Positions 27,418 through 29,967 of a DNA stretch of 64,000 nt are shown piece after piece. Each line of letters begins with the position of its first letter. Position 1 is the stretch's first letter. The notes below the pieces were generated by a model. The model saw only the letters and a list, made by a program, of their open reading frames with translations, was not told where the DNA came from and ran no database searches. The stretch comes from Ktedonobacteraceae bacterium (GTDB lineage Bacteria; Chloroflexota; Ktedonobacteria; Ktedonobacterales; Ktedonobacteraceae), in contig DAOTTL010000166.1 of the NCBI GenBank assembly GCA_034438135.1, positions 13,264 to 77,263 on the forward strand, in the 5' to 3' direction. The position numbers and the translations under genes were made by a program.

Positions 27418-27940
27418 ATGACGCAAATAAAAGATGTGACGCACACAGGAGAGGGGGCATCCTTTTGCGTCATTCTGTTGCAGCGGCTCTGTAGGCCGCA
27501 CGAAGGGAAACCTGTGACGCGAATGACGCAAAGGCGCAAATATTCCTACCCTTTTCTCTCTTCTTCTTCTCTTTCTTCTTTTTTAAAGATAGATTCTAAA
27601 AAAGAAGGGGCCATTTTGCGTCATTTGCGTCACCTCATCCATTCGCACTAACTGGGAAGCGCCCTCATCCAGGTGACGCAAAATGTAGGGAGGAGTCAAT
27701 TTGTGTTATTTTGGCGATTTGCGTCACCTTTTGAGCGATTTGCGTCACCTTTTTTGGCTCGTTTGCACTGTTTTTTTGCCCGATTTGCACCACTTTTTAG
27801 TCTGATTACACCGCTTTTTGGCTCAAATTGCATCATTTTTGGGCTTATTGACGCTGTTTTTTTGGCTTGAAACTTGCTTTTTAGGGAGCTTTTCAAGCAG
27901 CGGCGGAAATTTTGCGTCACCTTGACGCTTTGCGTCACCC
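27418..27940. promoter_or_regulatory. Dense cluster of an 8-10 nt motif, TTTGCGTCAC / GTGACGCAAA, in both orientations
   Basis: There are seven exact TGCGTCA copies, at 27466, 27617, 27626, 27720, 27741, 27913 and 27931. There are four exact TGACGCA copies, at 27419, 27437, 27524 and 27674. Near-copies lie at 27515 and 27923. No credible ORF covers the region. Confidence 0.6.
27714..27884. repeat. Eight tandem degenerate direct repeats of 20-23 bp, each ending in a T-tract
   Basis: The units start at 27714, 27735, 27757, 27779, 27801, 27821, 27842 and 27865. Units 1 and 2 are GCGATTTGCGTCACCTTTT(TT)G. Later units decay (GCTCGTTTGCACTGTTTTTTTG, CCCGATTTGCACCACTTTTTAG, ...) but keep the T5-7 run plus G at about 21-bp phasing. 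Confidence 0.8.
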
Positions 27941-28133
27941 CTCCATCTGGCGTTTTTTTGAGCATGCTATTCCCCTTCTTATAGATTGCGCGAAGCGCTT
28001 ACTATAAATGTGAGTTATCCCTCCACTTTGCTGAGGCTTGCAAAACCCCTCCTCCTCCTCGAAAAAAGAAGAGGCGAAGAGCCTGTGTGGCGGGGTGGCC
28101 TGCACAGCTATAGACATGAAGTTAAGCCAAAAA

Positions 28134-28189
28134 AGGGGTGCAGGATCCTCCCTGCCGGGGTTTGGGGTGTCCCCAAAAACCCCTTTCCT
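28134..28189 (+). repeat. GC-rich G4/C4-run repeat element, second copy
   Basis: The sequence is AAGGGGTGCAGGATCCTCCCTGCCGGGGTTTGGGGTGTCCCCAAAAACCCCTTTCC. It shares the blocks GGGGTGCA ... GGGGT(C/T)TGGGG(C)TGT(G)CCCCAA ... CTTTCC with the copy at 7405-7463, in the opposite orientation. Confidence 0.65.
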
Positions 28190-28258
28190 TCTATTTCGCC
28201 GCTTTAACGGTAAAATAGAAGGGAGTGCAGAGGGCGTCCTTCTGCTAACTTCGTGTCT

Positions 28259-28335
28259 ATGGGCGGGGCGGCCTGCTGTGCAGGCCGAAAGCCTTTTGTC
28301 CTGCTTTTGCAAAAGCAGGAATGACTCATATATCC
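28259..28335 (+). repeat. About 77-bp hairpin-rich repeat element, copy 1 (just 3' of the monooxygenase stop)
   Basis: The sequence is ATGGGCGGGGCGGCCTGCTGTGCAGGCCGAAAGCCTTTTGTCCTGCTTTTGCAAAAGCAGGAATGACTCATATATCC. It contains the hairpin GGCCTGC-TGT-GCAGGCC and the perfect 20-bp palindrome CCTGCTTTTGCAAAAGCAGG (28300-28319). Confidence 0.8.
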
Positions 28336-28338
28336 TTC

Positions 28339-29640
28339 TTATGCACTCTTTTTTCGTGATATGAAGAGATTAGTAGCTCGTAGGGCGGTTTTTGCGAGTG
28401 CGCGTCTGGCAGGGTTTTCCATTACTAAAAGGTCCATCGATTGCTTTGAACTTTTGACAGCAGCAAAGCTGTACTGGAGCATTTCTGTAACATACTCCTT
28501 GAGTGCTTCAGAGAGCGTCTGCTCTTGTTTTGCGGCAGAGATCAGCTTCCGGCAGAGGAGTTGAGCGTCCCTGAGAGCGGTATTGCCACCTATCCCACGC
28601 GTCGGCGGCATACTATGAATAGCGTCTCCAAGCAGGGTGATATTCTGGCTCTCCCAGGGTGCAACCCGAGTGGCGATTCGCAAAGGAGTCGTAATGACCG
28701 AGTCTGGATCGGTCAGACGAACAACATGTCGCAGTGTAGGATGCCAGTCTTTGACCATATCCTGCGCAATCTGGAGCAGCTCTAATCCCGCCATATGTTG
28801 TAGTTCTTCTTGCCTCGGGTAGTTCTTTTTCCTGGTGATGAACGCCCAGAAGTAGTAATCGTTAGTATTCTCGAAAAGGGCACTTGACTCTTCAAGCAAT
28901 GCTTCTTCGTTGATGCCAATTGTACCCTGAGTTCGCTCTTCTGCCTTGCCGCTGAGGTTGTGAACAGCAGAGAAGAGACTACGACCCTTTGGACCAAGCA
29001 CAACATTTGCCCAGTCAAACTGGTTAGCAACAAGTAGCGAGTGGATTTCAGGGGTCAGAGGCACTTTGCCGATGACAGCTATGTTCCCAGTCTCAACACG
29101 GCTGGCCTGGGGTATGAATTGTTGGCGAATGCGGGAATGGCCTCCATCGGCTGCGACCAACAAATCACCGATCACGCTTGTGCCATCCTCAAAAAAAGCG
29201 GTTATAGACCCATCGGGGTTTTCTTGATAATGAGAGTAGGTTTTGTTGAAATGGACGATCTCATCCATCTCTGCCAGTAATACCTGGCGCAAGGTAATAC
29301 GGCTGACTGAGCGGGATGACTCAAGTGGATCATGCTGTTTGGATGGCTCCACGGAAAATGCCACCAGGCGATTGAGTTGCTCATCTCTCATCAGCAGACC
29401 TTTACCATCACCTCCGGTTGTCTTGATGTATATCTCAAAGAGACGAGGGGGCAGACAATCGTGTAATGCCTGGTTGCCCATCGCTTCTATGTGAATACGA
29501 TACCCCTGCAAACGTTCATTCCGATTCTGGTCGCGCTCATAAAGAGCAACGCTGATCCCGGCTTTTTTGAGTCCCTGAGCCAGACAAAGGCCACCAAGAC
29601 CACCACCAATAATCAAGACATGAAAAGACCGCTTAATCAT
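28339..29640 (-). CDS. FAD-dependent (class A flavoprotein) monooxygenase
   Basis: Three motifs fit the PF01494-type fold: the GxGxxG dinucleotide fold HVLIIGGGLGGLCLAQGLKKAGISVALYERD, the DG motif DLLVAADGGHSRIR, and the GD motif LLGDAIHSMPPTRGIGGNTALRDA. The ORF track starts at the GTG at 29646. The ATG at 29640 has AAGGAG 7 nt upstream and is preferred. Confidence 0.88.
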   Translation of the reverse strand: MIKRSFHVLIIGGGLGGLCLAQGLKKAGISVALYERDQNRNERLQGYRIHIEAMGNQALHDCLPPRLFEIYIKTTGGDGKGLLMRDEQLNRLVAFSVEPSKQHDPLESSRSVSRITLRQVLLAEMDEIVHFNKTYSHYQENPDGSITAFFEDGTSVIGDLLVAADGGHSRIRQQFIPQASRVETGNIAVIGKVPLTPEIHSLLVANQFDWANVVLGPKGRSLFSAVHNLSGKAEERTQGTIGINEEALLEESSALFENTNDYYFWAFITRKKNYPRQEELQHMAGLELLQIAQDMVKDWHPTLRHVVRLTDPDSVITTPLRIATRVAPWESQNITLLGDAIHSMPPTRGIGGNTALRDAQLLCRKLISAAKQEQTLSEALKEYVTEMLQYSFAAVKSSKQSMDLLVMENPARRALAKTALRATNLFISRKKSA

Positions 29641-29825
29641 ATGCACACTCCTTTCGAGAAATCAGATGCTGCGTTAAGACTAACGCCGAATAAATCAAGA
29701 ACCTGTATTTATTTTTGATACTTGTGTTTATAAAAGTATTCCATCATGTTCTTGTTTTTAGAGTATACTTTCAATGCAGATGCTATGTATCACCCTCGCA
29801 GGTGATTTAAAGGGTGAATTTTGGT

Positions 29826-29889: not shown

Positions 29890-29967
29890 ATGGGGTGGGG
29901 CGGCCTGCATAAGAGGCCGAAAGCCTTTTGTCTTGCTTTTGTAAAAGCAGGATGACTTATACTATTC
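29890..29967 (+). repeat. About 77-bp hairpin-rich repeat element, copy 2 (3' of mbtH, 5' of the monooxygenase)
   Basis: The sequence is ATGGGGTGGGGCGGCCTGCATAAGAGGCCGAAAGCCTTTTGTCTTGCTTTTGTAAAAGCAGGATGACTTATACTATTC. By eye it is roughly 85% identical to copy 1 and in the same orientation. Confidence 0.8.

What the first reader, a model, noticed from the sequence alone, without database searches (positions are those of the whole stretch)
27418..27940. Eleven exact copies of TGCGTCA/TGACGCA in about 520 bp of non-coding DNA between the two operons
The extended motif is TTTGCGTCAC and its reverse complement GTGACGCAAA. It occurs in both orientations, sometimes back-to-back (TTTTGCGTCATTTGCGTCACC at 27614-27634; TTTTGCGTCACCTTGACGCTTTGCGTCACC at 27910-27939).

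A given 7-mer counted on both strands is expected about 0.06 times in 520 bp of random sequence. The clustering is therefore not chance.

The region lies upstream of the terminator/promoter pair that precedes the MFS and loading-NRPS operon. It could be a high-density binding array for a DNA-binding protein (a regulator, a nucleoid protein, or a replication or partition-type factor). It could also be the relic of a mobile or replicative element.
Basis: seen in the sequence. Interest (0 to 1): 0.62.

Follow-up and report, generated by a model that had tools for sequence, protein, structure and literature searches.

The report
Gene-less replication-origin-like repeat array
The eleven TGCGTCA boxes are real and form a lone, gene-less copy of the kind of docking-site array (a replication origin of the staphylococcal-island type) that normally sits right behind the gene of a self-loading replication helicase of a mobile element. 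It therefore most likely belongs to mobile-element biology and is not a control region of the antibiotic-type gene cluster around it.

Summary
There are 11 exact TGCGTCA/TGACGCA heptamers at 27419-27937, against about 0.07 expected. Genome-wide, the motif clusters at only three places.

The boxes belong to a roughly 584-bp non-coding element (27385-27968). It has a diverged full paralogue on contig C119, an internally deleted copy on C40 and a fragment on C236. Between the window and C119 copies the heptamer cores are 96-98% identical, while the spacers are 70% identical.

The layout matches a SaPI/PICI-type origin:
- two inverted doublets of boxes at 9-bp pitch (27514-27532 and 27615-27633) flank a 68-bp centre of 32% GC;
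- further boxes occur in both orientations;
- a 21-bp-pitch array carries phased T-tracts.

The same motif and grammar lie directly behind the stop codon of a replication-helicase gene (P-loop ATPase plus C-terminal DNA-binding-type domain, often fused to a primase). This holds in the closest metagenomic relatives (L131, L133), in a family relative (L109), and in 7 metagenome and 14-20 genome loci from other phyla.

The window's genome encodes two such proteins. One has other repeats. The other runs off its contig just before its 3' flank.

The best reading is a rep-less ("orphan") iteron origin. Whether it still fires, titrates the initiator or is inert is open.

The parts
27385..27968 (+). 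Whole rep-less origin-like element (about 584 bp). The + orientation is collinear with 'helicase gene stop -> array' in relatives.
   Evidence: Limits come from the alignment of the window, C119, C40 and C236 copies. The layout is collinear with L133 and L131, where the array starts about 45 nt after the helicase stop codon.
27418..27473 (.). Left box group: ATGACGCAAA (27418-27427), GTGACGCACA (27436-27445) and the inverted TTTGCGTCAT (27464-27473). It is preceded by the conserved CTGAACAAGCTGAACAACAG.
   Evidence: The same order (ctgaac-acag, two boxes, one inverted box) occurs right after the stop codon in L133.
27483..27499 (.). Small GC hairpin GCGGC-TCTGTAG-GCCGC, kept in C119 as GTGGC...GCCGC.
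   Evidence: Its role is unknown.
27514..27542 (.). Left inner set: GTGACGCGAA and ATGACGCAAA at 9-bp pitch, plus a degenerate third unit GGCGCAAATA.
   Evidence: inverted repeat I1: 19 nt, 95% complementary to 27615-27633.
27543..27610 (.). AT-rich centre, 32% GC against 51% for the genome. It holds a pyrimidine tract and a local hairpin CTTCTTTTTT-13 nt-AAAAAAGAAG. This is the candidate melting region.
   Evidence: 40-bp windows reach 25% GC. The equivalent CT-rich/A-rich centre is present in C119, C236 and L131.
27615..27633 (.). Right inner set: TTTGCGTCAT and TTTGCGTCAC at 9-bp pitch, inverted relative to 27514-27532. A 32-nt block around it is identical in C119.
27673..27682 (.). Single box GTGACGCAAA, inverted relative to its neighbours on both sides.
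   Evidence: I4-I8.
27709..27885 (+). Array of about eight units at about 21-bp pitch. The first two carry perfect ATTTGCGTCACC (27718, 27739). The later ones are degenerate (TTTGCACCAC type). Each unit ends in a T4-7 tract, spaced about two helical turns apart, so intrinsic bending is inferred.
   Evidence: TRF and the sequence. The same kind of array is in C119, C40 and C236. Arrays of the box at 20-22-bp pitch also occur in the rep-linked loci L131, L109 and L157.
27911..27938 (.). Right-end pair TTTGCGTCAC (27911, 27929) with TTGACGC between them, followed by GGCGTTTTTTT. This module is shared with C40 but absent from C119.
25728..27008 (-). Flanking MFS transporter gene. It is not part of the element.
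   Evidence: Pfam MFS_1, E 1e-24.
28339..29646 (-). Flanking FAD-dependent monooxygenase gene. It is not part of the element.
   Evidence: Pfam FAD_binding_3, E 1.5e-25.

Best explanation
The region is a rep-less ('orphan') copy of an iteron-type replication origin. It is of the kind used by self-loading initiator-helicases of integrative mobile elements, whose paradigm is the SaPI/PICI Rep or PriRep protein with its ori.

The 7-10-nt boxes (core TGACGCA, extended GTGACGCAAA) are the docking sites for the C-terminal DNA-binding domain of such a helicase. Two box sets pointing in opposite directions flank an AT-rich centre where the duplex would be opened. The outer boxes and the phased T-tract array would add binding sites and a bend.

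In intact elements this module begins a few tens of bases after the helicase stop codon. Here, and in the copies on C119 and C40, it stands alone.

The likely cognate protein is the helicase encoded on contig C382 of the same genome. Its closest relatives elsewhere are followed by the same boxes.

What is shown: the array, its paralogues, selective conservation of the boxes, and the linkage of this grammar to helicase genes elsewhere.

What is inferred: binding by the C382-type protein. It is also inferred that the lone copy is at most a trans-acting target (fired or merely bound), with no role in regulating the gene cluster.
For: 1. Layout. Inverted 9-bp-pitch doublets at 27514-27532 and 27615-27633 flank a 68-bp centre of 32% GC, with 12-13 boxes in both orientations. 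This matches the published SaPI ori grammar: 6-12 short iterons directly after rep, two opposed sets around an AT-rich centre, and SaPI5 boxes TGCAACC separated by AA, which is a 9-bp pitch (PMC9371898; bioRxiv 10.64898/2026.10.17.759575).

2. Closest relatives. The closest homologues of the genome's own C382 protein were fetched. L131 (81% identical) and L133 (77% identical, also preceded by an HTH_17 gene) have GGTGACGCAAA/TTTGCGTCACCC arrays starting about 45 nt after the stop codon. These arrays are collinear with the window element.

3. Specificity pattern. A family relative (L109) has the variant boxes GTGGCGCAAA/GGGACGCAAA at the same place. Other paralogues and relatives carry different private repeats there: C424, C220, L110 and L112. 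That is the pattern expected of initiator-specific iterons.

4. Linkage to helicase genes elsewhere. The exact tandem box occurs in 39 metagenome, 51 viral and more than 118 genome loci, against about 1-17 expected by chance. It sits at the 3' end of homologous helicase genes in 7 metagenome loci. In the genome loci, 20 of 118 hold such a gene, and in 14 of these the gene's 3' end abuts the boxes. It also lies next to unrelated primase genes.

5. Protein homology. The N-terminus of the L028 protein matches primase structures, including SaPI5 PriRep5 (7OLA), and PHROG primase/helicase families.

6. Conservation. Box cores are 96-98% identical between the window and C119 copies, against 70% for the rest (Fisher p 1e-6 to 6e-8).

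7. Cognate candidates. The genome encodes two such helicases, on C382 and C424.
Against: - No helicase gene or remnant adjoins the window, C119 or C40 copies, so a defining positional feature of the family is missing.
- The only complete helicase paralogue with this C-terminal domain (C424) carries other repeats. C382 runs off its contig before its C-terminal wing and 3' flank, so the cognate pairing is unproven.
- Outside the boxes, similarity to L131 and L133 is weak.
- The winged-helix nature of the C-terminal domain is not established. The AlphaFold model is confident (pLDDT 85.5) and ends helix-helix-beta-beta, but Foldseek finds no significant PDB match. The weak hits are mostly winged-helix proteins.
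- Conservation of the boxes could have accrued while the copies were still inside functional elements. It does not prove selection on the lone copies.
- The loci from other taxa were retrieved with the motif itself, so the sample is ascertained on it.
Confidence: 0.66

Rival explanations
1. The element has the same ancestry but is now an inert relic: a leftover origin of decayed mobile elements that no protein uses. The box conservation simply reflects recent orphaning.
For: The genome holds other decayed pieces of such elements. C424 has an intact helicase gene but a frameshifted HTH_17 gene, host genes on both sides and no array behind it. The C40 copy has lost its centre and C236 is a fragment. 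Six of the eight 21-bp units are degenerate.
Against: Two full copies keep every core box while their spacers have diverged by 30%. The copies consist of the origin segment only, with no Rep coding remnant at either flank, which is not what random deletion predicts. Rep-less copies recur alongside rep-linked ones in other phyla.
Confidence: 0.25
2. The region is an operator array for a transcription factor that regulates the MFS and loading-NRPS operon or the upstream monooxygenase operon.
For: It lies between two co-directional operons, about 240 bp upstream of a promoter-like site at 27143-27115. Dense short repeats in both orientations also occur in operator regions.
Against: Paralogous copies lie in unrelated gene contexts. 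The homology includes the spacers. The grammar is tied to helicase genes elsewhere. No regulator gene is adjacent.
Confidence: 0.04
3. The boxes are arm-type binding sites of a tyrosine integrase, an attP-like or attL/attR-like region, and do not belong to an origin.
For: attP sites also consist of opposed sets of short tandem repeats around an AT-rich core with bends. The helicase gene is often the last gene of small integrative elements.
Against: The full two-armed arrangement occurs here in chromosomal DNA with no element between the arms. The arrays track the 3' end of helicase genes of several unrelated families, and private motifs change with the helicase paralogue. The genes identified next to the window copy are an MFS transporter, an FAD monooxygenase and MbtH, beside long ORFs read as NRPS genes; none was recognised as an integrase.
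Confidence: 0.04
4. The region is a structured non-coding RNA gene or a miniature transposon (MITE), and the inverted boxes form hairpins.
For: Several inverted pairs exist. Weak miRNA-precursor-like Rfam hits reflect the long hairpin. The element is multi-copy.
Against: No Rfam family scores anywhere near its threshold. The boxes are conserved in both direct and inverted arrangements and inside a coding tail in L109. There are no terminal inverted repeats or target duplications.
Confidence: 0.03

Closest known systems
Replication origins of Staphylococcus aureus pathogenicity islands (SaPI/PICI ori) with their self-loading Rep / PriRep helicases (PMC9371898; bioRxiv 10.64898/2026.10.17.759575)
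   Same: Both have short (5-7 nt) iterons in 6-12 copies. Both have two sets pointing in opposite directions around a central AT-rich region. Tandem boxes are separated by two bases (9-bp pitch). In the relatives L131, L133, L109 and L028 the array starts directly behind the helicase ORF. The L028-type protein has a prim-pol N-terminus that matches PriRep5 (7OLA) by sequence.
   Different: The window copy has no adjacent rep gene. It spans about 580 bp where SaPI oris span about 300 bp. It adds a 21-bp-pitch T-tract array. The helicase family has no Pfam model, and only its primase part is detectably similar to PriRep5. The host is apparently a Ktedonobacteraceae-type soil bacterium. Binding and firing are untested.
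Phage satellite P4 ori/crr with the alpha primase-helicase (from my own knowledge, not checked here)
   Same: In P4 a primase-helicase with a C-terminal DNA-binding domain recognises octamer iterons in direct and inverted orientation. A second, gene-distal iteron cluster (crr) acts in cis.
   Different: The crr cluster lies on the same replicon a few kb from ori. It is not dispersed in the chromosome. The motifs and proteins are unrelated by sequence.
Iteron plasmid origins and their extra iteron clusters (RK2, P1 incA, RSF1010 oriV; review PMC4980987 listed, not read in detail)
   Same: These also have direct repeats of about 20-22 bp next to an AT-rich region. Additional iteron clusters can titrate or handcuff the initiator.
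   Different: There are no DnaA boxes in the element. No RepA-type initiator gene is present. The core unit is a 7-10-mer at 9-bp pitch in inverted sets.

Membership tests
SaPI/PICI-type Rep origin (iteron ori of a self-loading helicase) | Six to twelve short (5-7 nt) iterons | tested here: met
   There are 11 exact heptamers plus one box one mismatch off. 13 sites lie within two mismatches of the 10-mer.
SaPI/PICI-type Rep origin (iteron ori of a self-loading helicase) | Two iteron sets pointing in opposite directions around a central AT-rich region, with at least two on each side | tested here: met
   The doublets 27514-27532 and 27615-27633 are inverted (19 nt, 95% complementary) around 68 bp of 32% GC.
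SaPI/PICI-type Rep origin (iteron ori of a self-loading helicase) | Located immediately downstream of the rep open reading frame | tested here: not met
   No helicase gene or remnant lies next to the window, C119 or C40 copies (tblastn; HMM E > 1). The feature is met in the related loci L131, L133, L109, L028, L039 and in 14 genome loci.
SaPI/PICI-type Rep origin (iteron ori of a self-loading helicase) | A cognate initiator-helicase with a C-terminal winged-helix domain is encoded in the same genome | tested here: inconclusive
   Two homologues exist, on C382 and C424. C382's relatives carry the same boxes, but its own 3' end is missing. The C-terminal domain model ends helix-helix-beta-beta, but Foldseek gives no significant hit.
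SaPI/PICI-type Rep origin (iteron ori of a self-loading helicase) | Specific binding, melting and Rep-dependent replication | not testable with these tools
   This needs EMSA, DAP-seq or a trans-replication assay.
Classical iteron plasmid oriV | 17-22-bp direct iterons together with DnaA boxes and an adjacent RepA-type initiator gene | tested here: not met
   A 21-bp array is present. There is no DnaA box within one mismatch in the element, and no initiator gene is adjacent.
MITE / small transposon | Terminal inverted repeats and target-site duplication | tested here: not met
   No terminal inverted repeat appears among the inverted pairs. The flanks of the three copies show no duplication.
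Known RNA family (Rfam 15) | Match reaching a family's gathering score | tested here: not met
   The best hits score 15-28 bits against thresholds of 58-200.

The most novel reading that the evidence does not exclude
Rep-less origins of this type may be a functional class of their own. They would be dispersed, gene-free targets that the element-encoded helicase binds or fires in trans. Two outcomes are conceivable. One is local over-replication of neighbouring DNA, here a 60-kb NRPS-PKS cluster, when the element is induced. The other is a decoy role, in which the copies titrate the initiator and limit replication of related elements.

The recurrence of rep-less copies beside rep-linked ones in Bryobacteraceae, Reyranella and Isosphaeraceae MAGs does not exclude this. 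Neither do the earlier notes of this scan on Bacteroidales and SAR202.
Probability: 0.08. Interest if true: 0.8.

Novelty: new variant of a known kind. Interest (0 to 1): 0.45.

Why it matters
The result removes a tempting but wrong reading, that of a regulatory array for a natural-product gene cluster. It replaces that reading with a testable one.

It also adds a Ktedonobacteraceae-type example to a pattern that my literature searches did not find described. Origin modules of self-loading helicases occur as gene-free, sequence-conserved copies scattered in chromosomes, sometimes many per genome and in several phyla.

If such copies are bound or fired in trans, they would matter for three things: copy-number control of mobile elements, interference between elements, and local gene dosage.

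For annotation, the box grammar is a practical signature for finding both intact and orphan origins. The signature is tandem 7-mers at 9-bp pitch in opposed sets around an AT-rich centre.

Tried and rejected
- Rfam scan of the gap: only sub-threshold chance hits.
- blastn of the element against 40 relatives, plasmids and phages: no match outside the own genome.
- Motif-pair scan of 112 family genomes: the three hits outside the own genome are unrelated sequences.
- Empty-site comparison: orthologues of the monooxygenase in three relatives are not followed by the MFS/NRPS genes, so no empty site could be compared.
- Joining C382 to other contig ends by shared 21-mers: none found.
- Literature search for the motif: only unrelated primer sequences.
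- First AlphaFold run with 6 sequences: too poor to use (pLDDT 47).
- Second AlphaFold run: a good model, but Foldseek against the PDB found nothing significant.
- Pfam and PHROGs: they do not recognise the Ktedonobacteraceae-type helicases (C382, C424, L131, L133). Their assignment rests on 38% identity over about 490 residues to the L028 protein (E 1e-100), whose N-terminus is a primase.
- Coding reading of the 21-bp array (heptad peptide): rejected, because unit lengths vary from 19 to 23 bp in C119.
- Sigma-54 promoter, Spo0A box and RacA ram-site ideas: set aside on spacing or sequence, without tools.

Full report
**Observation**

The window holds 25 exact TGCGTCA/TGACGCA heptamers. Eleven of them lie between 27419 and 27937. 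Shuffles of the window give 11.2 +/- 3.7 for the whole 64 kb.

The genome (6.68 Mb, 693 contigs, 51% GC) holds 939 heptamers, so 0.073 are expected in 520 bp. The Poisson probability of 11 or more is 7e-21.

The stretch lies in a 1330-bp gap between an MFS gene (25728-27008, minus strand) and an FAD monooxygenase gene (28339-29646, minus strand). The extended box is GTGACGCAAA. Thirteen sites fall within two mismatches of it.

Genome-wide, only three clusters of the heptamer exist: the window, C119:674-992 and the end of C40. 14 of the 27 genomic copies of the 10-mer lie in these copies.

**Anatomy**

The boxes belong to an element of about 584 bp (27385-27968). From left to right it contains:
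- a conserved lead-in, CTGAACAAGCTGAACAACAG;
- two boxes and an inverted one (27418-27473);
- a small GC hairpin (27483-27499);
- a doublet at 9-bp pitch plus a degenerate third unit (27514-27542);
- a 68-bp centre of 32% GC with a pyrimidine tract and a local hairpin (27543-27610);
- the inverted doublet (27615-27633);
- a lone inverted box (27673);
- an array of about eight units at 21-bp pitch, whose first two units carry perfect boxes and all of which end in T-tracts spaced two helical turns apart (27709-27885);
- a terminal pair (27911-27938).

These features are shown. The element has no DnaA box and matches no Rfam family. The only promoter-like site inside it is weak. The better one, at 27143-27115 on the minus strand, lies outside it.

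**Paralogues**

- C119:643-1004 matches window 27389-27753 at 78% identity and continues with its own 19-23-bp T-tract units.
- C40 carries the two ends of the element with the centre deleted.
- C236 carries a fragment of the centre plus units.

The contexts are unrelated. On C119 the element sits between a DinB-like gene and an LLM-type oxidoreductase gene.

Between the window and C119 the heptamer cores are 62/63 to 67/70 identical, while the remaining columns are 70% identical (Fisher p 6e-8 to 1e-6). The variable unit lengths rule out a coding repeat.

The rest of the 1330-bp gap consists of other short repeats that occur on more than a hundred contigs of this genome.

**Where the same thing occurs with a gene**

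The element was not found by blastn in 40 relatives, plasmids or phages. The exact tandem box, however, occurs in 39 metagenome contigs (20-mer), 51 IMG/VR contigs and more than 118 representative genomes (18-mer). Chance predicts about 1, 2 and 17 respectively. Many of these loci hold arrays of 6-24 boxes with the same grammar: triplets at 9-bp pitch in opposed orientation around a spacer.

In seven metagenome loci the array sits at the 3' end of a gene of about 870 residues. The N-terminus of that protein is a prim-pol primase:
- PHROG 13901/1829, E 1e-34 to 1e-32;
- PDB primases 6a9w/7rr3, E 3e-20;
- SaPI5 PriRep5 (7OLA), E 6e-10.

Its remainder is a P-loop ATPase plus a C-terminal domain.

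I built a profile of that ATPase plus C-terminal part from 240 homologues. It finds the gene in 20 of the 118 genome loci. In 14 of these the gene's 3' end is within a few hundred bases of the boxes.

Other, unrelated primase genes adjoin the boxes in other loci:
- a BT4734_N/PriCT_1 protein in 19 low-GC phage contigs;
- a DUF5906/VapE-type primase in L062;
- a helicase-primase in L060.

These loci were retrieved with the motif, so they show linkage. They say nothing about how frequent the motif is among such elements.

**The window's own genome and its relatives**

The genome encodes two homologues of the ATPase plus C-terminal part, each 38% identical to L028 over about 490 residues (E 1e-100):
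- C382:3-2780 is preceded by an intact HTH_17 gene. It runs off the contig about 25 codons before its expected end.
- C424:2162-5200 is intact at 1012 residues. Its HTH_17 gene is frameshifted and host genes flank it.

A third gene, on C220, shares only the N-terminal 380 residues.

C424 and C220 carry other private repeats in their 3' coding ends (AACCCAGGTTTCACGGCA x3 and GTCCTTCAC x3-4) and no TGACGCA array.

The closest relatives of C382 in public assemblies settle the link:
- L131 (81% identical) ends at a stop codon that is followed by GGGTGACACAAA, GGTGGCGCAAA, GGTGACGCGA and TTTGCGTCACCC. Next come a doublet GGGTGACGCAAATGGACGCAAAATTTCC, a CT-rich/A-rich centre, and TTTGCGTCACCC units at 21-22-bp pitch.
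- L133 (77% identical, with HTH_17 upstream) is followed by aaactgaaccacagagggTGACGCAaaatgcgttcaggggTGACGCAaatcgcatctcctaaaattTGCGTCA. This is collinear with window 27398-27473.

A family relative (G087, L109) has GTGGCGCAAA/GGGACGCAAA boxes in the same arrangement. Other relatives have TGTAGATA-type repeats there.

Each helicase variant thus has its own repeat behind it, which is the pattern of initiator-specific iterons.

No remnant of the helicase gene flanks the window, C119 or C40 copies.

A member of the cluster of homologue P0132 is named Ktedonobacteraceae. The window's family contains a 13.7-Mb genome. Both facts are consistent with that assignment, which I did not otherwise verify.

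**Comparison with what is known**

The published description of SaPI origins fits point by point:
- six to twelve penta- to heptanucleotide iterons lie immediately downstream of rep;
- half lie on each side of a central AT-rich region;
- at least two on each side point in opposite directions;
- the iterons are bound by the winged-helix C-terminal domain of a self-loading Rep helicase;
- in SaPI5 the boxes TGCAACC are separated by AA.

The window element meets the sequence-grammar criteria but fails the positional one, because it has no rep gene.

The C-terminal domain of the L028 family gives a confident model (pLDDT 85.5 with 80 sequences) that ends helix-helix-beta-hairpin. Foldseek finds no significant PDB match. 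The weak hits are mostly winged-helix proteins such as Orc1/Cdc6 bound to origin DNA, PadR and MarR. I therefore treat the winged helix as likely but not shown.

**Mechanism proposed**

Hexamers of the C382-type helicase would dock through their C-terminal domains on the opposed box sets. They would distort and open the AT-rich centre and load themselves, as proposed for SaPI Reps. That step is inferred by analogy.

At a rep-less copy this could only happen in trans. I cannot tell whether the lone copy fires, merely titrates the protein or is inert. I put about two thirds on "origin module and binding array of this helicase type" and about a quarter on "same ancestry but now inert".

**Rivals**

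The rivals are an operator array for the cluster, integrase arm sites, and an RNA or MITE. Each gets a few per cent, for the reasons given in their sections.

**Wider pattern**

Rep-less copies next to rep-linked ones recur elsewhere.
- In a Bryobacteraceae MAG, one array follows the helicase gene (L204). Three others stand alone, and the homology is confined to the ~150-bp array.
- Reyranella and Isosphaeraceae MAGs hold five or more copies each.

Earlier notes of this scan describe the same kind of orphan arrays in Bacteroidales, Prevotella and SAR202. These are AI notes and not independent evidence. One bold reading in them, extra chromosomal origins, fell on later check. I have therefore kept the probability of a functional orphan class low.

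My two literature searches found no description of such orphan origins. That is a limited search.

**Verdict**

The region is a new variant (rep-less, dispersed, in a Chloroflexota-type host) of a known kind of replication origin, and it is of moderate interest.

Noticed in passing
window 27143-27320, 28007-28095, 28110-28270, 28261-28335: The rest of the 1330-bp gap is built from at least three or four other short dispersed repeat families. They occur on more than a hundred contigs of this genome. The ~70-bp unit at 28261-28335 is the most abundant, at 85-95% identity. It also recurs at about 29890-29967, as another first-reader note says.
   Followed up: partly
G000 contig C424:2162-5501 (locus L106): An intact 1012-residue helicase paralogue has a frameshifted HTH_17 gene upstream. 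Host genes (SDR, TetR) follow directly after its stop codon, and there is no array behind it. Its 3' coding end carries private repeats (AACCCAGGTTTCACGGCA x3 and AGAAGACATCGTCTACG x2-3). It is a 'rep without ori' counterpart to the 'ori without rep' copies.
   Followed up: partly
G000 contig C220:24991-28220 (locus L117): A third paralogue shares only the N-terminal ~380 residues with C382 and C424 (72-74% identity). It has a different C-terminal half with GTCCTTCAC repeats in its 3' end. This looks like domain shuffling among these replication proteins.
   Followed up: no
L172, L183, L187 (Reyranella MAG); L142, L150, L152, L202 (Isosphaeraceae MAG): Within single genomes the tandem TGCGTCA boxes sit inside larger conserved non-coding repeats of about 300-400 bp present in several near-identical copies, with no helicase gene in the 8-kb loci. 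I did not work out what these larger units are.
   Followed up: partly
L023:1-404 (metagenome contig MWVV01005459.1): An extreme array of 18 tandem copies of the 12-mer AAAGGTGACGCA is followed by the usual opposed triplets around a purine-rich spacer.
   Followed up: no
L087:3516-3911 and its homologues in 19 IMG/VR contigs: In the low-GC phage family the boxes lie between a 132-residue protein with a DnaA-C-terminal-like helix-turn-helix (Pfam Bac_DnaA_C, E 1e-6, below cutoff) and the BT4734_N/PriCT_1 primase gene. That small protein is an alternative candidate binder there.
   Followed up: no
G087 locus L109 (about 1325 down to 600, minus strand): Here the box array lies inside the open reading frame of the helicase gene. 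It is read through as a low-complexity linker before a Cys-rich C-terminal extension, so iterons and coding sequence overlap.
   Followed up: no
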